The position numbers were made by a program, and so were the translations under genes. Below the pieces are notes generated by a model that searched no databases, was not told where the DNA came from, and was given only the letters and a program-made list of their open reading frames with translations. Positions 90-10,290 of a stretch of DNA of 17,519 bases are shown one piece after another. The stretch is from a virus (Duplodnaviria; Heunggongvirae; Uroviricota; Caudoviricetes): positions 1 through 17,519 of IMG/VR virus record IMGVR_UViG_3300033121_001080; one strand, 5' to 3'. Within the stretch, counting starts at the first letter, position 1; each line of letters starts with the position of its first letter.

Positions 90-2372
90 TTAATCTTGTT
101 TAATAATTTGTCTAGCTAACTTATGGGCCGGATGATCTTCCGGATATGATAATGCTGTTCTAATTTGAATATTGTTCTTTGTGACCGGGTTAATAATTTG
201 TCGTGACAAATCAAACGAGGTCTTGTTATGAGATGGTACTTCTTCAGGCGGAACGTCCTTTCGTGGAACTGGAGCGATCTGTGGCTCTTTTGGAGCTATT
301 GCAGGAGGCTGTTCTGGTTGTGCTCCATAACGCATCATACCCACAATTTGATTAACTGGCGCAAATGCTCCAGTTAATTTATAAACACCACTGCCATAAT
401 TAAATACAAGCCCCTCGCTAGATGTAATCTTATCCATTCCAATGGCATTTAATATATCAAGATTATCTTCCATCTTACGAATTTTATTTTGATCATTCGT
501 AGAACGGACAGATTCTATAGCTTTTTGAACAGCCTGTAACATTTCTTCTGCAGCCTGCGGGCTATTTGATGCCAACACATTTGTAATTCTTCCGATAGTT
601 TCAGCACCCAATTTTAATACAGGAATTTTGATAACATTAATGAATTTATTATTTAACGTTGCTGCTTCTCCATCTAACTTTCTAAACCATTCTTTTTTAT
701 CTGGAGGTAAATGTTTGACACCAAATGATTTGTCCCCGTATACCCAACGCTTAATAAGCGCCGCCTTTTCTGAATCGGCTAAGTCAACTTTTTCTTCGTG
801 AAGTTTCTTTAACCACTGAACAGTCATATAATCACCGATAGTATTATTCAAATCTAAGTGATTATTACGTGCAATTGTTGCGAATGTATTGGAGAATTCC
901 TTTGCAGCTTTATCATAATAATCGTTGTCGGATTCAGAAAATACTATAAAATGCTGACCTTGCATACCGTATGTTTGTTGCTGATGTGCATTATATGCTT
1001 GTAGTGCTGTAGAAAGTTCTTCACCCTCGTCTCTATTTTCAGCAACAGGATTTCCTTCGATATCGTACTCAATAGTTCCGTGAAAAAGTATCATGGACTT
1101 GTTATAAGGAATGACGTTAGTTGTAGATGGATTTATGATTTCCAAACTCATGAATTTTTTTCCATCTGCAAATAAACGATTTACTTCTTCTGGAGAAAGT
1201 GCGTCTATAGCACTTTGTAAATCAGAACCAGCAGTGCAAAATGATGCTTCAATAGCACCCTTACCAGCAAATTTTTGACATAACTGTTGTACATCCATTG
1301 CCTCCGCACCGAAATTTTTAAGTTGGCCCTTATTTCTAGAAAATACAATTCTACCATTCTTATAAGAAAATAGTAAATTTTGACCATCTGCCTTTTCTGC
1401 AACCGGCCCGTCTTTATCCAAGCCACCTTTTAATGATCTGTTTGTTAATTCTATTAAATCAGAGAATTTGAAATCCATATCTTCGTACGGATGTTGAATA
1501 TGTCCGTGAGCACCACCTTCTAACAATACACTCTCGTTCATCTTTGATCTAACAAACTTGTCTGCGGCTATATAAGCAGGATGATTCTTCTCATACTTTA
1601 ATGCAGAACCAACCAGAATATCATTACCAGTTTCAGGATTCTTGATTTTGTAATGTAAGAGCTTTTCTAATGTCTGATGTGTTTGTGTAATATCTGGTGT
1701 TGGGACTGATCCTTTTTCAGATGGAGGAGCAGTCATTGTAGAACCACTAAATCTTTGATTTAATAGTTGGTATGCTTCTTCATCAAACTTACCATAAATC
1801 TTTTTGAACAGATTTCTCTTTTCTTCTTCATCACCTTTTGCGAACGTATCTCGAATAGCAGTACCGGATATATTTTGACCGCCAACGTCCATTTCAAAGT
1901 CGGGAACATGTAAAACATATCCCTTAGTTTTAAATGGTTCCATTTCACTTTTATCTGAATGCGGGGAAAAATATTTACCAGTCGTTAATCTATCCGCATC
2001 TTTTTCACCCAATGCAAATATAGCTGGACGATTGGGGTCCATTTTAGAAAGTAATTCTACCGGTGCGTATGGAACTCGCGTTTTAATAATATGGCCGGGG
2101 TCAATTCCAAACATTTTTGAAATTAATTTTTGCTTATCATCAAAATTTAACGGGGATTTCCCCGGTTCAGTTTTATCACTGGTTGCAATATAAACATTAT
2201 CTGGACCGTATTTGTCCACTAATGTTTTATATACATGATAATGACCAGCATGAAATGGTTGAAATCTTCCCGGCAAAATAACAATCGGATTCGATTTTTC
2301 GTTTCCTTCAAACAAGAAACTTACTATCGAATTGGCTATTTCTGTTCCCAAACGTAGAGGACTTAAATCCAT
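90..2372 (-). CDS. 760-aa multidomain protein: N-terminal HxGH (cytidylyltransferase/NMNAT-like) nucleotidyltransferase plus ATP-dependent RNA-ligase-like covalent nucleotidyltransferase, with two copies of a ~40-aa repeat module
   Basis: GRFQPFHAGH (HxGH, aa 41-44) and ISGTAIRD closing motif; second domain has EKADG (K327), FSRN, SLEII, ILF, EGLVF (E653) and YKL (K665) in the order of ligase motifs I, Ia, III, IIIa, IV, V. SD AAGGGAG 6 nt before ATG. Confidence 0.8.
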   Translation of the reverse strand: MDLSPLRLGTEIANSIVSFLFEGNEKSNPIVILPGRFQPFHAGHYHVYKTLVDKYGPDNVYIATSDKTEPGKSPLNFDDKQKLISKMFGIDPGHIIKTRVPYAPVELLSKMDPNRPAIFALGEKDADRLTTGKYFSPHSDKSEMEPFKTKGYVLHVPDFEMDVGGQNISGTAIRDTFAKGDEEEKRNLFKKIYGKFDEEAYQLLNQRFSGSTMTAPPSEKGSVPTPDITQTHQTLEKLLHYKIKNPETGNDILVGSALKYEKNHPAYIAADKFVRSKMNESVLLEGGAHGHIQHPYEDMDFKFSDLIELTNRSLKGGLDKDGPVAEKADGQNLLFSYKNGRIVFSRNKGQLKNFGAEAMDVQQLCQKFAGKGAIEASFCTAGSDLQSAIDALSPEEVNRLFADGKKFMSLEIINPSTTNVIPYNKSMILFHGTIEYDIEGNPVAENRDEGEELSTALQAYNAHQQQTYGMQGQHFIVFSESDNDYYDKAAKEFSNTFATIARNNHLDLNNTIGDYMTVQWLKKLHEEKVDLADSEKAALIKRWVYGDKSFGVKHLPPDKKEWFRKLDGEAATLNNKFINVIKIPVLKLGAETIGRITNVLASNSPQAAEEMLQAVQKAIESVRSTNDQNKIRKMEDNLDILNAIGMDKITSSEGLVFNYGSGVYKLTGAFAPVNQIVGMMRYGAQPEQPPAIAPKEPQIAPVPRKDVPPEEVPSHNKTSFDLSRQIINPVTKNNIQIRTALSYPEDHPAHKLARQIIKQD
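93..212 (-). repeat. Copy 2 of the ~40-aa protein module (C-terminus of the 760-aa protein): DLSRQIINPVTKNNIQIRTALSYPEDHPAHKLARQIIKQD
   Basis: Ungapped alignment by hand: 14/40 identical to copy 1 and 19/40 to copy 3; follows a Pro-rich linker (QPEQPPAIAPKEPQIAPVPRKDVPPEEVP). Confidence 0.9.
1542..1661 (-). repeat. Copy 1 of the ~40-aa protein module (internal, aa 238-277, between the two catalytic domains): LLHYKIKNPETGNDILVGSALKYEKNHPAYIAADKFVRSK
   Basis: 18/40 identical to copy 3 and 14/40 to copy 2, no gaps; preceded by a Pro/Thr/Ser linker (STMTAPPSEKGSVPTPD) and followed by SVLLE-GGA. Confidence 0.9.
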
Positions 2373-2397
2373 GAAAAACTCCCTTAAGTAGCTATAT

Positions 2398-2405
2398 AAT
2401 AAATA
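2398..2405 (-). promoter_or_regulatory. Putative late-promoter box, variant TATTTATT
   Basis: One mismatch to the TATTTATA box found in three other intergenic gaps; lies in the gap 25 nt upstream of the ATG at 2372. Confidence 0.45.
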
Positions 2406-2418
2406 GTTACGAAATATT

Positions 2419-4134
2419 TCAAGCGCCAGTAAATCGAACTATTGGTGACTCTATTGTTATAGGAACCGTTTCTCCCTGAACATCTATCAATTCTGCTTTA
2501 AATTGCATTGTTCCAGATGGAATTCCGGACGTAGCCAATATTGGAAATATTGCTACGCAATCATTAGGAACAAATCCTCTGTCCGTTGCGACATTAATTT
2601 TAACGTTGGCAAATAGCCACTGGCCTCCGTAGATTAAAAATCTCAAGGCTCCCGTACCAGTAGCCGAGGTGATGAAATTAATATCCTGATCTACGAAATC
2701 TTGCTTCGTAGTTACGGTGTCAGTCGTGTAACTAGCTATTTTTACTCCGAATGGATCGGAGCTAGGAAATGCCGTGCCATAGAAATAAATGTCCATTTTA
2801 CCGTTAATTGAACTGTCTTTAAGACATGACATGTCTAAAGTAAGCTTATATTCCGTATCTTGGGTAAAATTGACAGTAGAATTGGCACCAATAAAATATA
2901 CCGGGGTAACGGATGCTGTGTAGAAAGTGCCCACCGAAGCTGAATATAGATTGGATGCGCTGCCCAATAAATACATTGAATTTAATGGAATATAATCAGA
3001 CGTATATCCGACATTTGGCAGCGTGGTTGTACCAGTAACATAAGAAGCACTTACTACATAATCTCCTATCCAATAAAAATTGGCTGTGGCTGGATCTTTA
3101 ATGTAACCCGTGTCAACCACATTCTCACCAGATAGAAGTAATTGTTGAGAAGCATAATTGATGAAGGTATTCAACTGCGGGCCTTCTATAATTTTCTCTC
3201 CAATATATTGATAATCACCAACATTTCCATACTTTCTAACATAGAATTTTGATTTGAATACGTATCCAGAAAACGTATTTAAATCTGTCAACGACAATTG
3301 AGCAAATGATCTTGTGGGGTTGCTGGCGGTGTAACTACTTGTGTAATATTGAAAATTACATTGTGTTGTAGTTGGGAATGTTAGATATGAAGTTCCATTA
3401 TTGAACGGAGATGAAAGTTTAATAATTCTGTTTGACCACACATCGGCAATACTAGAACTATATGTTACACCGTTAATAGATGCACTAAATCCACCATTAA
3501 CCATAGCTCCGTTAAATAGAGACGCAGATGCAATAACCAAGTAATCAATTTTATTTGGATTGTCATTGACGCTATATGCTGTTTTATTAACCGTTGAATA
3601 TAAGCCAGTTGAAGCACTAGCAATATTTGTTAAGTTGGCAATTCTATAAAGTGAGAGAAATTCTTGAACAGACAGTTCTGGTTGATTATAAAATCGAAGA
3701 GGAGAACGTGTAATTCTGGAAGGATCAACTAATATACTCTTAGTGTATTTTACATTATACTTGCCGCGCCATTCTGGCGGGATTGAGTTACCGTTTGCGT
3801 CGCGATCCAATTCTCCCATAATAGTCAACGTAGCAAACCCAGCAGGAGTATCTTCATAAACTTCAATTGAAATTACTCTCGAAAATCCTTCTTGATATTT
3901 TGAAATTGGTACCGAAAATATAGCATTACCTTCCGAGTCCAATACTTCAATAAGAATTTCGGTAGACCCTTTTAGATAGCCAGTTCCAAGTATCAAAAAT
4001 GAGTTTTTTCCCAACCCCAATACATCTGGAAATTGAGAAACTTTAAAGTATTTGGATAGTGGGTCTGTGTCAGTTATGTAGGTTTGAGCAACCGCCAGAC
4101 CAAGTGGAGAACTGTATTTTTTAAGTTTTGTCAT
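2419..4134 (-). CDS. 571-aa probable virion structural (tail/baseplate-associated) protein
   Basis: Long ORF rich in S/T/Y/G/N with beta-strand character, no catalytic motif recognised; SD GAGGG 5 nt upstream; preceded by a TATTTATA box like the tail genes. Function inferred only. Confidence 0.6.
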   Translation of the reverse strand: MTKLKKYSSPLGLAVAQTYITDTDPLSKYFKVSQFPDVLGLGKNSFLILGTGYLKGSTEILIEVLDSEGNAIFSVPISKYQEGFSRVISIEVYEDTPAGFATLTIMGELDRDANGNSIPPEWRGKYNVKYTKSILVDPSRITRSPLRFYNQPELSVQEFLSLYRIANLTNIASASTGLYSTVNKTAYSVNDNPNKIDYLVIASASLFNGAMVNGGFSASINGVTYSSSIADVWSNRIIKLSSPFNNGTSYLTFPTTTQCNFQYYTSSYTASNPTRSFAQLSLTDLNTFSGYVFKSKFYVRKYGNVGDYQYIGEKIIEGPQLNTFINYASQQLLLSGENVVDTGYIKDPATANFYWIGDYVVSASYVTGTTTLPNVGYTSDYIPLNSMYLLGSASNLYSASVGTFYTASVTPVYFIGANSTVNFTQDTEYKLTLDMSCLKDSSINGKMDIYFYGTAFPSSDPFGVKIASYTTDTVTTKQDFVDQDINFITSATGTGALRFLIYGGQWLFANVKINVATDRGFVPNDCVAIFPILATSGIPSGTMQFKAELIDVQGETVPITIESPIVRFTGA

Positions 4135-4153
4135 CGATGCCCTCAGAGTATAC

Positions 4154-4161
4154 TATAAATA
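4154..4161 (-). promoter_or_regulatory. Putative late-promoter box TATTTATA
   Basis: Exact TATTTATA on the coding strand, 19 nt upstream of the ATG at 4134 and immediately after a terminator. Confidence 0.6.
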
Positions 4162-4163
4162 TC

Positions 4164-4203
4164 ACAAAAAATCAAAAGGACCAGAATTCTGGCCCTTTTG
4201 ATT
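4164..4203 (-). terminator. Rho-independent terminator downstream of the Mre11-Rad50 fusion gene
   Basis: Minus-strand RNA AAUCAAAAGGGCCAG-AAUU-CUGGUCCUUUUGAUUUUUUG: GC-rich stem with one G-U pair (a mismatch on the plus strand, which fixes the orientation), 4-nt loop, U-rich tail; 20 nt after the stop at 4224. Confidence 0.85.
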
Positions 4204-4223
4204 GCGTAAGTTATTGTTACTTA

Positions 4224-7200
4224 TTATTTTACAGTGATATACGAGTATTCGTTCTCTCGTTTGATTTCGATGATAGTATCTGCTATATCTCGTACGGTAT
4301 CCAAATGACTGATTAAAATTATGAACTCAAATTTAGTCTTTAACATGTTGAATAACATGAACATAGATGCCAAATTTTCACTGTCCAAAACGCCCAATCC
4401 TTCGTCAATGACCAAGAAATTGGATCTAGGCAAGTTGCTGACGGACATTAAAGCTACTCGAATTGCCAATCCACTTATGAATTTTTCCATTCCAGAAGCT
4501 AATTCCAATGGCCATACTCGATCATCGTCATAAACAATTTTTCCATTAACATTCTTTCCGTCTACATCCAATATTATTGAAAAATTAACCAATTGATTTA
4601 ATACATTATTAACTTCGTCTTGAATAGTCGGCATGATATCAGATATTATGGAATATGGAATCCCATCTCTGGATACTGCTTCCATGTACAATTCATATGC
4701 TTCGTATGTCTTTTCAAGTTCTTTTGCCTCGGTCATAGACTGCATTATTTGATTTTTTTCAGACAAAGTTACAGAAATTTTACTGTGGAGATTCCGAAGT
4801 ATTACTTCGTCTTTGGATAATCTATTGACCAATTCCGTTTTGTTTTTTTCTATATCTTTGATTGCGGAATCAATCTGATCGTTTAATTCAATTGTCGTCT
4901 TGTCATTTTCAAATTCTGCTTTTGCTTTTTCTATTTTTTCTAATCTAGATTTGATAGATTCCATTGAATTGATAGTTTTCTCAATTTTCAATTCCGTGTT
5001 TTGTTTATTTGTAATTAGATTAGGTAAACTTGACTGTAGTCTTGTATATTGTTCGTACGTATCTTCTACATTTTGTAAGGTTCCTATCTTATCTTCTAAT
5101 GCGCGAATCTTAAATTCAGTTTGTTCAATTTCGCGCAAAAGAGAATCACGATCTTTTGCAGTTTGGATGGCATCTTTAACAAAGATATTATTTATACAAA
5201 ATTTGCAATTCGGATCATATTCATGCTTACTGAGATTATCAATTTTTTGATTTTTGTTTTTCAAATCTAAATTCATTATTTTCAATTTATGTTGTAGTTG
5301 GCTGTGTTCTGTTTTATAAGAAACGAGTTGTTTATTCTGTTCTATTAAATCAGAAACAGATGAATATGAATTTAATTTATCTTGAACTTCATCTATATTT
5401 TTATCAGTTAGTTCAACAATTTTGTGCAATCTATCTATTAAATCCACTGATTCAGATATTTGTTTATTGAATTCTTCTATCGCAGCATCATAATCTAAAT
5501 TCCACATCGATTTGATATGTGGGACTTTTGTTTCATACAACTGTTGAATGGTGTCACTTAACTGCTGAATTTCTTGTTTGTCAGATTCCACCTCACCAGT
5601 AAGAGTATCATACTGTTGTTCTAACGATTCAAGTTCTGTTTGTAAATCATTCAATTTTTGAGTGAAATCTATATTGGCAAATTTCTTTAGAGAATGTGCC
5701 ATTTCTTTACTTTCTTCTATTGCAAAATTAAGCAACTTATCGAATATAGTAAGCCCCATGAACTGACTCAACAAATCTTTTCTGTCTGACTGGCCCTTAT
5801 CTATAAACAACGAATTTTGTCCTTGCACGGATAGTGTAGTTAGAATAAAATCTTCGTAATCTCCAACGTAAGAACGTATGATCGCATTAGTATCTCTACG
5901 ATCCTCGCCAGTTAAGTTATCCCAGTTCTCTCCGTTCTTTTTGTAAAAATCCACATCTACTTTAACTTCACCATTCTTTTTACGAGAACCGGTTCTGTTA
6001 ATTTTATATGTTTCCCCATCAACTTCGAATTCAAATTCACAAGAGCAGGCATCTTCTCTGGTGTTCATGATATGATTGCCTTTGAATGCTCTTGGAGTTT
6101 TATCATACAGTGCAAAACACAATGCATCAAACGCACTGGTCTTTCCAGTCGCATTAGGAGAAAATACTCCATAAATGCCAGTCATATCTTCAAATTTAAT
6201 TTCATTTCCCTTTCCATAAGAAAACAGATTATCAAACTTGAGATTTAGCGGTTTCCATGTAATATTTTTTGGAAGTTGATCATCTATTATATTTGAATTT
6301 AATCGCGTATTTATTTCTACTATTTTCTTTACAGTATCTTCCGTGGCTGCTGGGAATGTATTTTTGACGTACGTCTCAATCAATTTGTTTTGATTAGAAA
6401 CCTCCTTAACATCCACTGCCGCAGACACTTTAGTATTTGTAGATGTAGTCTTAGGAATTAATTTGGAAACAGTGTATTCTAATACGACATGTTTCTTTCT
6501 GATCAACGATATGATTTTTTTAATCTCGGTGGCGTCTAAGTTCTCCGTCAGTAATCTGAGTCTGATGTTCTCTGGAATTCCTTGAGTACTAAACTTTTTC
6601 GAAGAGTCAATCTCCAAAGTTACATAACCATAGTTGTTTTTAACTGGATGATGTGTATGTGCCATTGTTGATAAATCCCATTCAATCCAACCATGGTTTT
6701 CTAACGTTTCACCGTGATTTTGTTGAATTAGAGAACCGGGATATAGAATAACTGGTGTAGATGATTGCAATACTTGATATTTGTGAATATCTCCCAACAT
6801 TACAATATCAAATCCAGCAAATCTCTTTATATCAAGAGCATGATTTGTAATAGTGTAACCAACATCCGTTTTTGCATTAATTAACGGACCATGATATAAT
6901 GCTACTTTGACATTGGATGATTTTGGAACATCAGGCCAACTAGCCGCGTCTCCTATAATTGAGAACACAGCGAAATCAACATTGTCAAATGTTGTGACAC
7001 CAGAATCTCGCAAGTAATATAGTGTTTTGGAATTGATGCTATCGACTATAGGAGTTAATGCATCTAATCTATGCGGGTTGGATAAATTTAAATCGTGGTT
7101 TCCAGCAATCAATATTGTTGGAGCTATGTCAGAAATTTTCTTCAAATATTCTGTGGTGAGAGCTACCATCTCAGGACTCATATCTGTTTTGGAGTGAACA

Positions 7201-7355
7201 ATATCACCTGCCAAAACAATCATTCCTTGTTTATTTACACGAGTATACCACGCCTGTAAATCGGTGCATAGTGTATCTAAAACTTGCCTGTATTCTTCGT
7301 GTCTCTTATATAATCGTATATGTAAATCTGCTATATGTGCTATACTTTTTATCAT
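4224..7355 (-). CDS. sbcD/sbcC: 1043-aa single-chain Mre11/SbcD nuclease - Rad50/SbcC ATPase fusion (T4 gp47/gp46-like recombination nuclease)
   Basis: Metallophosphoesterase motifs ADLH, AGDIVH, GNHD, LYHG, GDIH, YPGS; then Walker A SPNATGKT, Q-loop SVQGQ, long coiled coil with CKFC zinc hook (5196-5207), signature ASGME, Walker B FLVIDEG, D-loop LD, H-loop ISH. No stop between the two halves. Confidence 0.93.
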   Translation of the reverse strand: MIKSIAHIADLHIRLYKRHEEYRQVLDTLCTDLQAWYTRVNKQGMIVLAGDIVHSKTDMSPEMVALTTEYLKKISDIAPTILIAGNHDLNLSNPHRLDALTPIVDSINSKTLYYLRDSGVTTFDNVDFAVFSIIGDAASWPDVPKSSNVKVALYHGPLINAKTDVGYTITNHALDIKRFAGFDIVMLGDIHKYQVLQSSTPVILYPGSLIQQNHGETLENHGWIEWDLSTMAHTHHPVKNNYGYVTLEIDSSKKFSTQGIPENIRLRLLTENLDATEIKKIISLIRKKHVVLEYTVSKLIPKTTSTNTKVSAAVDVKEVSNQNKLIETYVKNTFPAATEDTVKKIVEINTRLNSNIIDDQLPKNITWKPLNLKFDNLFSYGKGNEIKFEDMTGIYGVFSPNATGKTSAFDALCFALYDKTPRAFKGNHIMNTREDACSCEFEFEVDGETYKINRTGSRKKNGEVKVDVDFYKKNGENWDNLTGEDRRDTNAIIRSYVGDYEDFILTTLSVQGQNSLFIDKGQSDRKDLLSQFMGLTIFDKLLNFAIEESKEMAHSLKKFANIDFTQKLNDLQTELESLEQQYDTLTGEVESDKQEIQQLSDTIQQLYETKVPHIKSMWNLDYDAAIEEFNKQISESVDLIDRLHKIVELTDKNIDEVQDKLNSYSSVSDLIEQNKQLVSYKTEHSQLQHKLKIMNLDLKNKNQKIDNLSKHEYDPNCKFCINNIFVKDAIQTAKDRDSLLREIEQTEFKIRALEDKIGTLQNVEDTYEQYTRLQSSLPNLITNKQNTELKIEKTINSMESIKSRLEKIEKAKAEFENDKTTIELNDQIDSAIKDIEKNKTELVNRLSKDEVILRNLHSKISVTLSEKNQIMQSMTEAKELEKTYEAYELYMEAVSRDGIPYSIISDIMPTIQDEVNNVLNQLVNFSIILDVDGKNVNGKIVYDDDRVWPLELASGMEKFISGLAIRVALMSVSNLPRSNFLVIDEGLGVLDSENLASMFMLFNMLKTKFEFIILISHLDTVRDIADTIIEIKRENEYSYITVK

Positions 7356-8278
7356 GCATTCACCTTTGATAATTTCATTGAAAGCCTATCTTTGAACGTT
7401 ACTTCTTTAGATTCTTCTATTAGTTTTCGCATACCAGCAAATCCAATTTCACTAGGATCTTTGCCTGTAAGATTAACCATATACACAGTTTGGCCATCTT
7501 TTAGCAATGTTTCGCACAGACGCATTGCTGCATTTGCCGCATCCGAATCTAACGCAATGTATATTTCACTGACTTGCTTTTCAACAATTTTTTGTTGTAA
7601 TTTGTTTTGTAATGTTTTTCCTAATAGTGGAATCGCGTTCCACTTAATTGCTATTGCATCCATCACTCCTTCACACAATACAATTGGGTAGTTCCAATTG
7701 ATGTGATAATCAAATCCAATTATGTTTTTGCTAATGGGTGGATTTTTGTATTTGAGTGTGCTATTGCCGAAGAAATCTCTACCAACAAAGTAGTTCAGTT
7801 TACCCGCATCATCATAACTAGGGATGATGATTCTGTTCGCGTACGGACCTGTGTTACAGTAGCCTATGCGGTATCTCATTATATCATATTTAGTGATGTT
7901 TCTTGATCGAAGATATTTTACTGCATGTTTGTATTCAAGTTCTTTGGTTGGAATCCACATTGGTTGGTAATCATCGGGAAGGCGTATTTCAACAGACGGA
8001 GTATCGTGTTGAACATACGATATTTCGTCGTGTAAAATAGTTTGTAACTCTCGTATCTGTTCTTTACTTACATTTAACTTTCTGAATAACGACAATAGTG
8101 TATAACCACCAGAATCACAAGTCCAACAATGCCATTTACCTTTTGAAAGATTTAATGCCAATTTTGGATTGTGATGATTGCAGAAGGGACAGTAAAAGTA
8201 GTATTCCGTGTGAGAATATTCCCTATACTGTCCCAATACAGATGCAGAAATTGAGAGTAGTTTGCTTACATCGTACAT
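7352..8278 (-). CDS. dnaG: 308-aa DnaG-type phage DNA primase (Zn finger plus TOPRIM)
   Basis: CPFC...HCWTC zinc ribbon, RIIIP, YFVGR, KYKNP, TOPRIM LCEGVMDA and ALDSD; SD GGAGG; its TGA overlaps the sbcD/C ATG (ATGA, 7355-7352), indicating translational coupling. Confidence 0.9.
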   Translation of the reverse strand: MYDVSKLLSISASVLGQYREYSHTEYYFYCPFCNHHNPKLALNLSKGKWHCWTCDSGGYTLLSLFRKLNVSKEQIRELQTILHDEISYVQHDTPSVEIRLPDDYQPMWIPTKELEYKHAVKYLRSRNITKYDIMRYRIGYCNTGPYANRIIIPSYDDAGKLNYFVGRDFFGNSTLKYKNPPISKNIIGFDYHINWNYPIVLCEGVMDAIAIKWNAIPLLGKTLQNKLQQKIVEKQVSEIYIALDSDAANAAMRLCETLLKDGQTVYMVNLTGKDPSEIGFAGMRKLIEESKEVTFKDRLSMKLSKVNA

Positions 8279-8295
8279 AAAACCTCCAATCTACA

Positions 8296-8324
8296 AAGAT
8301 AGCTAGATTAGATTTATTTGTCAA
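8296..8324 (-). promoter_or_regulatory. Sigma70-type (early) promoter for the primase - Mre11/Rad50 unit
   Basis: TTGACA (8324-8319), exactly 17 nt spacer (aataaatctaatctagc), TATCTT (8301-8296; keeps T-A-T-x-x-T), followed by the GGAGG SD and ATG at 8278. Confidence 0.7.
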
Positions 8325-8691
8325 GTACTTGAACTGGTGGTTTGAATACAGACATTAATTTAATAAAATGATCTAATGAAATGACTGCGTATGCTTTGCT
8401 ATTATTACGTTTGAACGCCAACACAGGTTCAATTCCGCTTTTACAATTAGACTCTGCTTGTTCTAACGCGCTCCATATATTAAGCTTTTCTTGGTTCTTT
8501 GCTTCTATAGAATATGGAATGAGTTTTCTAGCGGCAGGTGATAAAATTATATCTTCTCCCGATTGTCCCATAATTGTACAACGAACGTCATCTGGTTCTA
8601 AATGATCTTTAAATTCTTCTAATAGCTTATCTCGTACTTCCTGCTGAAATCTTCTGCCTTTTGCTTTACGTGACCGTGGTGTTTTTGCCAT
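8314..8691 (-). CDS. 125-aa PD-(D/E)XK Holliday junction resolvase-like protein (Hjc / T5 D14-like)
   Basis: N-terminal basic KAKGRRFQQEVRD helix, GEDII, IEAKN catalytic pattern and PVLAFKRN strand typical of phage Hjc-like resolvases; adjacent to primase. Confidence 0.75.
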   Translation of the reverse strand: MAKTPRSRKAKGRRFQQEVRDKLLEEFKDHLEPDDVRCTIMGQSGEDIILSPAARKLIPYSIEAKNQEKLNIWSALEQAESNCKSGIEPVLAFKRNNSKAYAVISLDHFIKLMSVFKPPVQVLDK

Positions 8692-8709
8692 GATAATTCT
8701 CTATTAAAG

Positions 8710-10290
8710 TTATTGATTTCGTTTTATGAAATCTTCTGCCGCTTTTCTGACCGGGTGATCGTGGTCATACTGTAGGGCTGTTTTAATAAGTATGTCGTGA
8801 TTAGTGACAGGATTGCGAATTTTCTGATTCAATAGATCATTAGCATGTCCACTAGTCATCGTTGGTTCATTAACAGCAGACGCAGCAATTTGCATTGCCT
8901 GATCTCTAGTCATTTCAGGATTTTCATACCACGCATCTTCAACCGCAGCCAAGATTTTCTTAATTTCTGGTCCCGGCTTCATGTTAAATGCAGTCATGAT
9001 ATCATTTCCATTGACAGGAAGTTTTGGTTTTGCTGGAATGACCATCGTAATATTCTTGATTCTATCAGCCATTGCAGGAATTTGATTAGGCATTGATGCG
9101 CCTTCTGCATGTGAAATATTATCAGCGTGCATTAATTTAAACGCCGGGTCAAGATCATTCCCCATGTGAGCAGCAAATTTACGTAATGCCTTATCAGAAA
9201 CTTGATCACCATTTGGACCGGCACTTTTCAAACGCATATGATTGGCAACGATGTTAACTACAGATTGAATTTGTTCTGTAGAATACTTCATGCGTTTCAT
9301 AATATTAGCTGCCATTTCCGCACCAACATCTTCGTGCTTATAGAAATGAATTCCAGTTTCATCTTCTGTCTTGACGGCTGGTTTTGCAATATCGTGGAAA
9401 ATGGCAGACAGTCTCACAACCAAATCTGGCGGTGTGTTGGATAATACTTCCATCGTGTGAGAAAACACATCATCTTTGTGATATTGATTCTGACCGACAC
9501 CAATCGTAGCAATTATTTCTGGTAGGAAATATGTTGCCAATCCAGTATACGTGAGCAATTTTACTGCTTCTGCCGGTCTGTCAGATAGAAGCATTTTGTT
9601 GAATTCATCTTGAATTCGCTCCATGGAAATATTCTTCAACATACCGGCATTCTTTTTCAAGGAATCAACGATATATGTCGGAATTTTCCAGTTATAACGT
9701 ACAGCAAAACGGATGACGCGCAACATGCGAAGCGGATCATCTTCAAATGTAATATCAGGATCTAATGGAGTGCGAATAACATGATCTTTGATATCTTGCA
9801 TTCCCAATCCTGTTGGGTCTAGAATTTTGCCTGTGGTTAGATCTTTGTACATTGCATTAATTGTCAAATCTCTGCGTTCTGCATCTGTCTTAAGATCTGC
9901 ATATACAACATCTGGTTTTCTTGATCCAGCGGTATACTTTTCTCCACGAGTCATAACAGCCTCAATATCAATATCAGACAAATCAAGACCGTCAACTTTC
10001 ACACCGCGAAGATTAAATTTCGCCGTTCCAAATCTAGGAAATATTAGAGGATTAACATCCTTTTTGTATGCACCAGTTTTTTTACAAATCCATTCAGCAA
10101 ATGTAATTCCACCATCTTGCATTGTTACAACAATATCAATATCTTTTACCGGCTTGCCCATAACTTGATCTCTGATTGCACCACCTGCTAATAGTACATG
10201 ATTTTCGAATGGGCTTCCCTTTAAAAGTCGGCTCAAGTAGTTTAATACAAATGTTTCTTTATTTTCTAATAAAAGCCGCAATTTAATCAC
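8710..10290 (-). CDS. cca: 526-aa class II tRNA nucleotidyltransferase (CCA-adding enzyme) with HD domain and C-terminal ~40-aa repeat module; GTG start
   Basis: AGGAIRD..KDIDIVV (D50, D52), RGEKY..SRKP flexible loop, ERRDLTINAM, FEDDPLRMLR, ERIQDEFNKML, HD domain (SHT..FHDIAKP, H299/D300), C-terminal PVNGNDIM..PGPEI; GTG at 10290-10288 with SD GGAG 7 nt upstream. Confidence 0.92.
   Translation of the reverse strand: MIKLRLLLENKETFVLNYLSRLLKGSPFENHVLLAGGAIRDQVMGKPVKDIDIVVTMQDGGITFAEWICKKTGAYKKDVNPLIFPRFGTAKFNLRGVKVDGLDLSDIDIEAVMTRGEKYTAGSRKPDVVYADLKTDAERRDLTINAMYKDLTTGKILDPTGLGMQDIKDHVIRTPLDPDITFEDDPLRMLRVIRFAVRYNWKIPTYIVDSLKKNAGMLKNISMERIQDEFNKMLLSDRPAEAVKLLTYTGLATYFLPEIIATIGVGQNQYHKDDVFSHTMEVLSNTPPDLVVRLSAIFHDIAKPAVKTEDETGIHFYKHEDVGAEMAANIMKRMKYSTEQIQSVVNIVANHMRLKSAGPNGDQVSDKALRKFAAHMGNDLDPAFKLMHADNISHAEGASMPNQIPAMADRIKNITMVIPAKPKLPVNGNDIMTAFNMKPGPEIKKILAAVEDAWYENPEMTRDQAMQIAASAVNEPTMTSGHANDLLNQKIRNPVTNHDILIKTALQYDHDHPVRKAAEDFIKRNQ
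8713..8835 (-). repeat. Copy 3 of the ~40-aa protein module (C-terminus of the CCA enzyme): LLNQKIRNPVTNHDILIKTALQYDHDHPVRKAAEDFIKRNQ
   Basis: Appended after the normal end of the CCA fold; 18/40 and 19/40 identical to the two copies in the 760-aa protein. Confidence 0.9.

What the first reader, a model, noticed from the sequence alone, without database searches (positions are those of the whole stretch)
93..8835. An unexplained ~40-aa module is appended three times to unrelated enzymes in two distant genes
Seen in sequence: copies at 1661-1542 and 212-93 (760-aa protein, one after each catalytic domain) and at 8835-8713 (C-terminus of the CCA enzyme) align without gaps. Twelve of 40 positions are invariant (L-x3-I-x-N-P-x-T-x3-I-x4-A-L-x-Y-x3-H-P-x4-A); pairwise identity is 14-19/40. 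Synonymous positions have diverged (AAT CCT vs AAC CCG; CAT CCT vs CAC CCG), so selection acts on the protein and this is not a recent DNA duplication. Two copies follow Pro-rich linkers, and the module is absent from primase, resolvase, Mre11-Rad50 and the tail proteins. There is exactly one module per catalytic domain. Inference: a portable address tag, such as a capsid-packaging/ejection signal, a docking handle for a shared scaffold, or a small tRNA/nucleic-acid-binding domain. The NPxTGxxI core loosely recalls the 2-cysteine adaptor domain of large eukaryotic DNA viruses, but there are no cysteines here. I do not recognise it as a named family.
Basis: partly seen in the sequence, partly recalled or inferred. 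Interest (0 to 1): 0.92.

Follow-up and report, generated by a model that had tools for sequence, protein, structure and literature searches.

The report
New tag domain on phage cargo enzymes
A small, previously undescribed 38-residue protein domain is attached one to four times to RNA-repair and anti-defence enzymes of large uncultured T4-type phages. The same proteins carry cleavage leaders like those of T4 head proteins, which suggests (untested) that the enzymes travel inside the capsid and are injected with the DNA.

Summary
All three copies are in frame at the stated coordinates, 12 of 40 residues are invariant, and the DNA has diverged at synonymous sites.

The module is not chance. A profile of it finds 558 protein clusters (at 50% identity) in metagenomes. 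Every carrier looked up came from metagenomic or viral contigs.

No Pfam, PHROG or PDB family matches. AlphaFold2 gives a confident fold (pLDDT 93): a beta-hairpin tipped by NPxTG, then two helices. Mean net charge is about +4.

Carriers include HIGH-nucleotidyltransferase/RNA-ligase-like fusions, PNK-like kinases, HAD phosphatases, CCA-adding enzymes, Toprim, Mom, type IB topoisomerase, ADP-ribosyltransferases and non-enzymatic proteins with variable tails.

New here: a hydrophobic-hydrophobic-x-Glu motif, the cleavage motif of the T4 gp21 prohead protease.
- It lies at carriers' N-termini (31% against 3%).
- It follows internal modules (29% against 5%).
- In a complete 218-kb relative it also starts the head proteins.

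Carrier genes lie in or beside the T4-type head gene block.

Best reading (confidence 0.4): the carriers are head-loaded cargo, cut into pieces of one enzyme plus one module. The leader is the packaging address. The module is a retained handle, probably binding nucleic acid. Nothing has been tested experimentally.

The scan had already read this stretch as a virion-delivered tRNA repair kit (e1-5433410).

The parts
1542..1661 (-). Module copy 1 (aa 238-277 of the 760-aa protein), between the HIGH nucleotidyltransferase domain and the ligase-like domain
   Evidence: E 1.7e-26 against the module profile. AlphaFold2 fold of this copy with a 39-row alignment gives pLDDT 93.
93..212 (-). Module copy 2 (aa 721-760), C-terminus of the 760-aa protein
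   Evidence: E 2.2e-26.
8713..8835 (-). Module copy 3 (aa 486-526), C-terminus of the CCA-adding enzyme
   Evidence: E 1.9e-27.
90..2372 (-). Gene for the 760-aa protein: HIGH-type nucleotidyltransferase, linker, module, RNA-ligase-like domain, Pro-rich linker, module
1728..2300 (-). HIGH (GRFQPFHAGH) nucleotidyltransferase domain, NMNAT-like
   Evidence: Pfam CTP_transf_like aa 32-126. PHROG cytidyltransferase, E 1.5e-10. Weak PDB sequence matches to archaeal NMN adenylyltransferases.
1662..1748 (-). Ser/Thr/Pro-rich linker before module copy 1
1518..1541 (-). Junction MNESVLLE|GG after module 1. VLLE fits the T4 gp21-type cleavage motif (hydrophobic-hydrophobic-x-Glu).
   Evidence: The motif is enriched just after internal modules: 25 of 86 against 5.4% background. 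Cleavage itself is inferred, not shown.
303..1520 (-). RNA-ligase-like covalent nucleotidyltransferase domain (EKADGQN motif I) with a long helical insert
   Evidence: Invariant E-K-x-D-G in 33 homologues. AlphaFold2 pLDDT 90. All of the 20 best PDB matches are RNA ligases: NgrRnl Z 9.1, T4 Rnl1 8.3, Trl1 8.3.
213..311 (-). Pro-rich linker before module copy 2
8710..10290 (-). Gene for the CCA-adding enzyme (PolyA_pol head, RNA-binding and HD domains) with a C-terminal module. GTG start.
   Evidence: 58% identical to the G001 orthologue, which starts with ATG at the aligned position.
10264..10290 (-). N-terminal leader (M)IKLRLLLE of the CCA enzyme, resembling T4-type head propeptides
   Evidence: Orthologues start MIRLYNLLFES and MIKLKGLLTEN. 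In G001 the strict leader pattern found only the CCA enzyme, a 102-aa ORF just before the portal gene, and one internal start.

Best explanation
The module is a new mini-domain of about 38 residues, found so far only in viral and metagenomic sequence. It has a beta-hairpin tipped by N-P-x-T-G, a short helix, an H-P turn and a C-terminal helix. Its mean net charge is about +4. Lys/Pro-rich linkers hang it on accessory enzymes of large T4-type phages.

In these phages each cargo unit is built as leader (hydrophobic-hydrophobic-x-Glu), then enzyme, linker and module. Units are often fused into polyproteins.

Proposed mechanism (all inferred):
1. The leader works like the T4 capsid-targeting propeptide. 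It brings the protein into the prohead and is cut by the gp21-like S77 protease. The protease also cuts the polyproteins after each module, into pieces of one enzyme plus one module.
2. The pieces are injected with the DNA. They include an RNA end-healing and sealing set, a CCA-adding enzyme, ADP-ribosyltransferases, Mom and a topoisomerase.
3. The module is the part kept on every mature piece. It most likely acts as a non-specific nucleic-acid (polyanion) handle that keeps the enzyme on the packaged or injected DNA, or on RNA substrates.

Shown: the family, its fold prediction, its cargo range, the motif enrichments and the gene positions. Inferred: cleavage, packaging, injection and nucleic-acid binding.
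For: Family and fold:
- 558 clusters match the profile.
- AlphaFold2 gives pLDDT 93. Five BFVD models of uncultured phage proteins show the same fold, three at TM about 0.9 and two at 0.58-0.68.
- The module is more conserved than the neighbouring ligase-like domain: 47.5% against 39.0% identity, in 84% of pairs.

Cargo: CTP_transf_like with the RNA-ligase-like domain in 35 proteins, PNK-like kinase including a kinase-ligase fusion (L025), HAD, CCA-adding enzyme, Toprim, Mom, type IB topoisomerase, ADP-ribosyltransferase, SAM-lyase-like and GNAT.

Leader motif:
- In residues 3-14 of 36 of 115 carriers, against 9 of 275 non-head ORFs of G001 (p 9e-14). At the level of N-terminal clusters it is 12 of 52.
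- In G001 the motif marks 6 of 16 head-block ORFs, including the MCP, a scaffold-like protein and the protease, against 11 of 280 elsewhere (p 8e-5).
- It lies within 18 residues after 25 of 86 internal modules, against 5.4% background (p 2e-12), ahead of at least four unrelated downstream domains.

T4-type head genes in G001: TerL, Portal_T4, Peptidase_S77 and Gp23.

Gene positions:
- The nucleotidyltransferase-ligase gene is one or two genes upstream of TerL in more than ten contigs.
- Module genes occupy the slot after the MCP gene in G001, L015/16/21, L019 and L064. An HAD-module gene lies before the scaffold-like and MCP genes in L010.

A class of proteins with leader, module and variable tail has no Pfam domain. 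It resembles T4 internal proteins, which have a conserved targeting sequence and a diverse payload (PMC3012670). T4 gp21 cleaves after Glu, for example at ITE-6 and LTE-619 in Alt (PMC5694885).

Nucleic-acid reading:
- Mean charge is +3.9, with conserved Lys/Arg at positions 5, 7, 18 and 31 and Lys-rich upstream linkers.
- The HU profile aligns to positions 57-87 (arm tip plus C-terminal helix) of one copy. HU chains from the PDB match the hairpin.
- Most identified cargo acts on RNA or DNA.

A second small KLDG ligase and a phosphoesterase in the tRNA region of the same genome lack the module. So the module is not simply a requirement of RNA-repair enzymes.
Against: - No virion proteomics, cleavage data or binding data exist. 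No cultured phage carries the module.
- The window's own record lacks the head block, so the synteny rests on relatives. The CCA enzymes of the window and G001 are 58% identical.
- The motif is only four residues long, and the carriers are not independent samples.
- Only about a third of carriers have the leader. HAD carriers and some CCA carriers (L005) lack it.
- In the window and in G001 the CCA gene sits among replication and recombination genes, not head genes.
- The E-G-G at the ligase junction is also conserved in Mel-JY01, which has no module, so it may be structural.
- The hairpin tip carries conserved acidic residues (E10, D14), which is unusual for a groove-binding element.
- All similarity to HU and to the 2-cysteine adaptor is below family thresholds.
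Confidence: 0.4

Rival explanations
1. The module itself is the cargo-loading tag. It would be a protein-protein docking domain that binds the inner face of the gp23-type (HK97-fold) shell, the scaffolding core or the portal. This would resemble the C-terminal cargo-loading peptides of encapsulins. The leaders would only be cleavage sites.
For: - Flexible Pro/Lys-rich linkers precede the module.
- Only a handful of proteins per genome carry it: 4 in the complete G001 genome.
- No copy was found in bacterial or archaeal genomes, although only one narrow peptide pattern was scanned.
- Specific surface residues are strongly conserved, including acidic ones.
- Carrier genes lie beside the MCP gene.
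- Non-enzymatic module proteins are encoded directly after the MCP gene.
- 2-cysteine adaptor proteins, a possibly analogous motif, are virion components in ascoviruses and megalocytiviruses (PMC6163548, PMC11911517).
Against: - In L064 at least ten head-block genes share the leader but only one has the module. The leader is therefore the commoner shared element.
- The Mel-JY01 homologue keeps the leader-like motifs without the module.
- No partner has been identified.
Confidence: 0.25
2. The module is an ordinary accessory domain that binds nucleic-acid substrates (tRNA, RNA or DNA) and works in the infected cytoplasm. It has nothing to do with the virion. The leader motifs and gene positions would then reflect N-terminal helices and insertion hot spots for accessory genes.
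For: - Most identified cargo acts on RNA or DNA.
- The module is basic and its hairpin resembles the HU arm.
- In the window and in G001 the CCA and Toprim-like genes sit among replication genes.
- Slots between conserved head genes also hold homing endonucleases, for example a GIY-YIG gene in L064.
Against: - The leader is enriched at N-termini and exactly at the junctions after modules, and the phage's own head proteins share it.
- Primase, nucleases and a second RNA ligase in the same genome lack the module.
- Some carriers have no nucleic-acid role that I can name: ADP-ribosyltransferase, SAM-lyase-like proteins and the proteins with variable tails.
- No copy was found in cellular genomes, with a limited pattern.
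Confidence: 0.2
3. The module is a docking handle for a shared cytoplasmic hub. The hub could be a conserved host factor such as the ribosome, or a phage scaffold that gathers kinase, phosphatase, ligase and CCA enzyme into one repair complex.
For: - The module is present on each member of a putative RNA end-healing and sealing set.
- It is highly conserved across phages whose fetched loci range from 26% to 43% GC.
Against: - The cargo range goes well beyond RNA repair.
- No candidate hub has been found.
Confidence: 0.1

Closest known systems
T4 capsid-targeting sequence system (internal proteins IPI-III and Alt, cleaved by gp21)
   Same: The relative G001 has T4-type head genes: Gp23 MCP, Portal_T4, the S77 protease and TerL. 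Carriers have short N-terminal leaders ending in hydrophobic-x-Glu. A conserved front end is joined to very diverse payloads, which include an ADP-ribosyltransferase. Carrier genes lie in or beside the head block.
   Different: The module is a folded 38-residue domain that would stay on the mature protein. It can be C-terminal, internal or repeated, and T4 has nothing like it. Payloads here include large RNA-repair enzymes and polyproteins. Packaging and cleavage are inferred, not shown.
Virus-specific 2-cysteine adaptor domain of large eukaryotic DNA viruses (Pfam PF08793)
   Same: It is a short, virus-only module. It shares a K-x-x-N-P-x-T-G-x-x-I hairpin, is fused in one or several copies to unrelated enzymes, and occurs in virion proteins (PMC6163548, PMC11911517). 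Its function is unknown.
   Different: The module has no cysteines. Only 2 of 39 copies give a sub-threshold match (best E 0.0021; 15.8 bits against a cut-off of 22), and that match covers the hairpin only. The hosts are tailed phages. The Pfam model also matches at E<=10 in 10 of 14 control bacterial genomes.
DNABII proteins (HU/IHF, Pfam PF00216), arm tip and C-terminal helix
   Same: The signature R/K-N-P-x-T-G-x-x-I is shared. One copy aligns to HU profile positions 57-87. Both are basic.
   Different: The match scores 14.2 bits against a cut-off of 22.4. The module lacks the dimerising helical body and the long beta-ribbon arms. The predicted hairpin has strands of only three residues.
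Encapsulin cargo-loading peptides
   Same: A terminal tag after a flexible linker sits on unrelated enzymes that are destined for an HK97-fold shell.
   Different: Those peptides are about 10 residues long and unfolded. No sequence similarity was found. Binding of the module to a shell was not tested.
Polyvalent proteins of phages and conjugative elements (PMC5512222)
   Same: Both are strings of unrelated effector domains that are thought to be delivered with the DNA. The domain repertoires overlap: ADP-ribosyltransferase, ParB, Toprim, and MPTase and ArdC-N in a neighbouring locus.
   Different: Here a constant spacer module and protease-type junctions separate the domains, and the core payload is RNA repair. 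No MuF domain was found among the Pfam hits.

Membership tests
2-cysteine adaptor domain (PF08793) | Match to the Pfam model above its gathering score | tested here: not met
   Only 2 of 39 copies match at E<=10, best E 0.0021. In five phage records a single site matches, at 15.8 bits against a cut-off of 22, covering profile positions 11-23 only.
2-cysteine adaptor domain (PF08793) | Two conserved cysteines flanking the hairpin | tested here: not met
   Cys is not among the five commonest residues at any of the 40 positions in 176 copies.
DNABII (HU/IHF, PF00216) | Match to the Pfam model above its gathering score, and the full fold (helical dimer body plus beta arms) | tested here: not met
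   One site matches at 14.2 bits against a cut-off of 22.4, and 2 of 39 copies match at E<=10. The module is 40 residues long, with a short hairpin and two helices.
DNABII (HU/IHF, PF00216) | Arm-tip signature R-N-P-x-T-G | tested here: met
   N8 98%, P9 98%, T11 97%, G12 72%, K/R7 63%. HU chains from the PDB align to profile positions 7-19.
T4-type capsid-targeted, gp21-processed head proteins | The phage has a T4-type head module, including an S77 prohead protease | tested here: met
   In the collinear relative G001: Gp23 (204 bits), Portal_T4 (243 bits), Peptidase_S77 (96 bits) and TerL. The window's own 81.5-kb record stops before this block.
T4-type capsid-targeted, gp21-processed head proteins | N-terminal propeptide ending in (L/I)-x-Glu | tested here: met
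   The window's CCA enzyme starts (M)IKLRLLLE. The motif occurs in 36 of 115 carriers against 9 of 275 controls. G001's MCP, scaffold-like protein and protease share it. It is not universal: about two thirds of carriers lack it.
T4-type capsid-targeted, gp21-processed head proteins | Presence in virions and cleavage at the motif | not testable with these tools
   No cultured phage carries the module, and no proteomic data exist.
ATP-dependent RNA ligases (covalent nucleotidyltransferase superfamily); applies to the cargo domain, not the module | Motif I (KxDG) lysine and the nucleotidyltransferase fold | tested here: met
   E42, K43, D45 and G46 are invariant in 33 homologues. All of the 20 best PDB matches are RNA ligases, with Z 7.5-9.1. 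Foldseek E-values are weak, 7e-3 at best. Activity was not tested.
Sortase sorting signal (NPxTG/LPxTG) | The motif is followed by a hydrophobic segment and a basic tail at the C-terminus of a secreted protein | tested here: not met
   The motif is the turn of a folded hairpin. Copies are internal or N-terminal as well as C-terminal, and no hydrophobic segment follows.

The most novel reading that the evidence does not exclude
Large T4-type freshwater phages pre-load their capsids with a ready-made tRNA-repair and anti-defence enzyme kit. The kit is made as polyproteins that the prohead protease cuts into pieces of one enzyme plus one module. The 38-residue module is a universal handle that lets bulky enzymes ride on, and leave with, the packaged DNA. 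Such a handle could be reused to deliver proteins by phage.
Probability: 0.3. Interest if true: 0.85.

Novelty: new variant of a known kind. Interest (0 to 1): 0.72.

Why it matters
If the reading holds, this is a second, modular layer of the T4 internal-protein strategy. Whole enzyme pathways would be shipped in the virion to act before any phage gene is expressed. These would include RNA end-healing and sealing, CCA repair, DNA modification and ADP-ribosylation.

That would change how counter-defence against tRNA-cleaving host systems is thought to be timed.

It would also give two short portable elements, the leader and the module, for loading foreign proteins into phage heads.

Independently of the mechanism, the work defines an unannotated domain family of at least 558 clusters. 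It also defines a conserved, order-permuting partnership between a HIGH nucleotidyltransferase and a divergent RNA-ligase-like enzyme.

Tried and rejected
- **Self-association.** A predicted homodimer of the module (complex prediction, two copies) gave no support (score 0.01). This is not evidence either way.
- **Fold searches with the module.** Foldseek against the PDB gave nothing at E<=1e-3. VIA-align against 48,161 chains gave a best Z of 3.4, to unrelated penicillin-binding proteins. The ESM Atlas feature search returned HEAT-repeat clusters with recognition below the mark, which I treat as meaningless.
- **Sequence families.** Pfam and PHROGs gave no hit for the three window copies.
- **PheRS motif 1 (..AL..P..HPAR).** It matches 7 of 39 copies at E>=0.043 and one full protein at 5.9e-5. 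I judge this a chance resemblance of the ALxYxxxHPA stretch.
- **Sortase-signal reading of NPxTG.** Rejected; see the membership test.
- **Word-based homologue search.** A search restricted to the module region found nothing, which is a limit of the method.
- **Cultured phages.** megablast of the whole window and tblastn of a module against 50,697 GenBank phage records gave no module hit. The only cultured relative of the 760-aa protein, Microcystis phage Mel-JY01, lacks the module. No paper on Mel-JY01 is held.
- **Cellular genomes.** A scan of 185,579 bacterial and archaeal genomes with the pattern NPET[GD]N[DN]I found no relative. The pattern is narrow, so this is weak evidence of absence.
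- **Phage-nucleus import signal.** Considered and set aside without a test, because tRNA-repair enzymes should act in the cytoplasm.
- **Domain X.** A phmmer search of the PDB with the unknown domain EGGNAV..NSKIPN found nothing.

Full report
**1. The observation**

The window carries a run of minus-strand genes. They translate as stated.

They align without gaps, with 12 invariant positions. At DNA level only 46 of 120 columns are invariant, and conserved residues use different codons. So selection acts on the protein.

The whole 81.5-kb virus record holding the window has exactly these three copies. IMG/VR classes the record as linear, and CheckV estimates it 37% complete. Both copies in the 760-aa protein follow Pro-rich linkers.

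**2. It is a real and large family**

- The three-copy profile found 28 further loci in IMG/VR contigs.
- Scanning those loci showed one to three copies per protein, and a clean domain boundary after low-complexity linkers.
- A 39-copy alignment (A2) was searched against 1.84 billion representative proteins. It gave 558 clusters at E<=1e-3 and 171 at E<=1e-10, with up to four copies in one protein.
- All ten clusters looked up come from metagenomes and carry no informative name.
- No cultured phage in GenBank has the module.
- A pattern-limited scan of 185,579 prokaryote genomes found none.
- A complete 217.7-kb relative with terminal repeats (G001) has six copies in four proteins.

**3. Fold and known families**

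AlphaFold2 with the 39-row alignment gives pLDDT 93. The fold has strands at residues 5-7 and 14-16, a helix at 17-20 and a helix at 28-39. ESMFold2 also folds the module with confidence (pLDDT about 80). Five BFVD models of uncultured phage proteins show the same fold, three at TM about 0.9 and two at 0.58-0.68.

No solved structure matches. No Pfam or PHROG family reaches threshold. Scanning all 39 copies at E<=10 gives only scattered sub-threshold hits:
- 2C_adapt: 2 of 39, best E 0.0021.
- HU (Bac_DNA_binding): 2 of 39, best E 0.0067.
- The PheRS core: 7 of 39, best E 0.043.

Searched over five phage records, the 2C_adapt and HU models hit the same single copy. 2C_adapt scores 15.8 bits over the hairpin only. 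HU scores 14.2 bits over profile positions 57-87, which are the arm tip plus the C-terminal helix. HU chains from the PDB align to the hairpin.

The shared element is the N-P-x-T-G hairpin. The module is not a member of either family.

Over 176 copies, the invariant positions are mostly core or turn residues: N8, P9, T11, I15, A20, L21, Y23, P28 and A33. Conserved basic residues sit at positions 5, 7, 18 and 31. Mean net charge is +3.9, and the 25 residues upstream are Lys-rich.

**4. Cargo**

Pfam tallies over 113 carriers, plus individual scans, give the following.

| Cargo domain | Carriers in the two tallies |
|---|---|
| CTP_transf_like (HIGH nucleotidyltransferase) | 35 |
| Mom | 7 |
| Toprim-like | 5 or more |
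| HAD | 4 |
| AAA_33/Zeta-type kinase | 3 |
| SAM-lyase/DUF3293 | 3 |
| GNAT | 3 |
| Type IB topoisomerase | 3 |
| DUF5661 | 3 |
| ADP-ribosyltransferase | 2 |
| ParB_N | 1 |
| A metallopeptidase | 1 |
| CCA-adding enzyme (tRNA_NucTran2_2) | 1 |

Further CCA-adding carriers are the window's own enzyme and those of L005 and L014.

The second half of the 760-aa protein has an invariant E-K-x-D-G and folds with pLDDT 90. All of its 20 best PDB matches are RNA ligases: NgrRnl Z 9.1, T4 Rnl1 8.3, Trl1 8.3, REL1 8.1 and Rnl2 8.0. Foldseek E-values are weak.

This ligase-like domain partners the HIGH nucleotidyltransferase in either order. In L025 it is fused to the PNK-like kinase. That supports an RNA end-healing and sealing role.

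The homologous nucleotidyltransferase-ligase of Microcystis phage Mel-JY01 has no module. The module is therefore an accessory.

The module is more conserved than the neighbouring ligase-like domain: 47.5% against 39.0% mean identity, and higher in 84% of 231 pairs.

A second small KLDG ligase and a calcineurin-type phosphoesterase in the tRNA region of the same genome lack the module. An earlier scan note, e1-1689364, had described that pair.

G001 is collinear with the window, and the two CCA enzymes are 58% identical. G001 has a T4-type head block:

| Gene | Position in G001 (kb) |
|---|---|
| TerL | 126.9-128.5 |
| Portal_T4 | 129.3-131.2 |
| Peptidase_S77 (gp21-like protease) | 132.9-133.4 |
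| Gp23-type MCP | 137.1-138.7 |

Positions of module genes relative to this block:
- The nucleotidyltransferase-ligase polyprotein ends two genes before TerL. The same order holds in more than ten other contigs, with one or two genes between, and in Mel-JY01.
- A 132-aa non-enzymatic module protein follows the MCP gene directly.
- The same slot holds 205-268-aa module proteins in L015, L016 and L021, and a Toprim-like module gene in L019.
- An HAD-module gene precedes the scaffold-like and MCP genes in L010.
- In an unrelated 57-kb contig (L064) the module protein P0124 lies 1.2 kb after the Gp23 gene.

**6. A second shared element: the leader**

Many carriers with unrelated cargo begin with a leader of the type M..(I/L)(K/R)L..LL.E.

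| Carrier | N-terminus |
|---|---|
| Window CCA enzyme | (M)IKLRLLLE |
| Other CCA enzymes | MIRLYNLLFES, MIKLKGLLTEN |
| Toprim-like | MILLTTLLED |
| SAM-lyase-like | MNQFKLTSLITES |
| Proteins without a Pfam domain | MANIKLTSLLKEE, MKLTKTQLREIIREEI |

The motif hydrophobic-hydrophobic-x-Glu in residues 3-14 occurs as follows:
- 36 of 115 carriers, against 9 of 275 non-head ORFs of G001 (p 9e-14).
- 12 of 52 N-terminal clusters (p 8e-6).
- In G001, 6 of 16 head-block ORFs: the MCP (MSSFDLNSLLTES), a scaffold-like 395-aa protein, the protease, two core-region proteins and a 102-aa ORF before the portal (MIKLSTLLTEAM). Elsewhere it marks 11 of 280 (p 8e-5).

A strict leader pattern scanned over every possible start in G001 found only three sites: the CCA enzyme, that 102-aa ORF, and one internal site.

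The same motif lies within 18 residues after 25 of 86 internal modules, against 5.4% of background windows (p 2e-12). It precedes at least four different downstream domains:
- ...LLE|GGAxGH, the ligase-like domain.
- ...ILE|GGNAV..NSKIPN, an unknown domain.
- ...LTE|N..LKVYVY, a second type of nucleotidyltransferase.
- Others.

In the window this junction reads MNESVLLE|GG.

T4 gp21 cleaves after Glu. Alt is processed at ITE-6 and LTE-619, and all T4 internal head proteins are targeted to the core by an N-terminal capsid-targeting sequence (PMC5694885). Their payloads are a diverse set of anti-defence proteins behind a conserved targeting sequence (PMC3012670). My recollection that T4 gp23 and gp24 are cut at FLTE|A and LLRE|S comes from memory and was not checked here.

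**7. What this implies**

The repeating unit is leader, cargo, linker and module. Fusing such units would explain why there is one module per catalytic domain. Cleavage at the junctions would release pieces of one enzyme plus one module.

The leader, not the module, looks like the general head address:
- In L064 at least ten small genes around the MCP gene share the MKLTKTQLKEIIREE-type leader, and only one has the module.
- Mel-JY01 keeps leader-like motifs (MGKLINILLSE, IIAE|GG) without modules.

A class of carriers has leader, module and a variable 100-170-residue tail, with no Pfam domain. This matches the pattern of T4 internal proteins.

The module would therefore be an extra handle kept on mature cargo. 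I favour nucleic-acid binding, for these reasons:
- The module is basic.
- Its hairpin and C-terminal helix resemble the HU arm tip and C-terminal helix.
- Its linkers are Lys-rich.
- Most cargo acts on nucleic acid.
- The non-enzymatic carriers end in Arg-rich tails.
- Ascovirus P64 joins 2-cysteine adaptor copies to a basic DNA-condensing tail (PMC6163548).

A protein-docking role, on the shell, scaffold, portal or a host hub, is not excluded.

**8. Caveats**

- Everything about cleavage, packaging, injection and binding is inference.
- The motif is short, and the carriers are phylogenetically related. The cluster-level counts reduce that problem but do not remove it.
- Only about a third of carriers show the leader.
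- The window's own record lacks the head block.
- The CCA gene lies among replication genes in both the window and G001.
- The E-G-G at the ligase junction may be structural.

**9. Verdict**

The module is a new mini-domain family, found so far only in viral and metagenomic sequence and not in either family it resembles.

The carriers probably are head cargo, but a different element, the leader, better fits the address role.

Novelty: a new variant of the T4 internal-protein and ejection-protein theme. It has an unannotated domain and an RNA-repair payload.

Noticed in passing
window 90-2372 (-); also P0015, P0141 and L025:29-2458: The HIGH (NMNAT-like) nucleotidyltransferase and the divergent RNA-ligase-like domain always travel together, but in either order. 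In L025 the ligase-like domain is fused to a PNK-like P-loop kinase instead. The role of the nucleotidyltransferase is open; it could supply NAD+ or adenylylate RNA.
   Followed up: partly
L064:2510-13366 (57-kb JGI contig): At least ten small genes around the Gp23 major capsid gene begin with nearly the same leader (MKLTKTQLKEIIREE, MKLTKTQLKEMIREE, MNRLKLKTILKEM and similar), followed by unrelated sequence. This looks like a large family of T4-style internal proteins with a shared capsid-targeting leader.
   Followed up: partly
L064:4822-5034: A ribosomal protein S21 gene (Pfam Ribosomal_S21) sits inside the phage head gene block.
   Followed up: no
P0008:1070-1372; L007 about aa 1041-1341: An unknown domain of about 300 residues, starting EGGNAV..NSKIPNxFAxST, follows a module in the giant polyproteins. 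It has no Pfam match, and phmmer found no PDB sequence match.
   Followed up: partly
L049 (ENA contig, 22 kb): A 1029-aa ADP-ribosyltransferase with three divergent modules lies next to a second ADP-ribosyltransferase with an N-terminal module. Separate small genes nearby encode NADAR, ArdC-N and MPTase-PolyVal domains. It looks like an island of unbundled polyvalent-protein domains.
   Followed up: partly
window 4224-7355 (-): A single 1043-aa ORF fuses an Mre11-type calcineurin phosphoesterase (aa 4-217) to a Rad50/SbcC-type ATPase (aa 372-1035).
   Followed up: no
window 10283-10290: The CCA gene starts at a GTG that overlaps the end of the upstream endonuclease gene by 8 bases. The G001 orthologue has ATG at the aligned position, which supports this start.
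   Followed up: partly
G000:C1:51076-51689 (beyond the window): Two short ORFs (96 and 77 aa) give weak Gp23 Pfam matches (31 and 11 bits) far from where the head block should lie. They could be a capsid-gene fragment or a chance match.
   Followed up: no
window 14102 to G000:19069 (-): The large ORF at the right end of the window continues beyond it to 1655 aa.
   Followed up: partly
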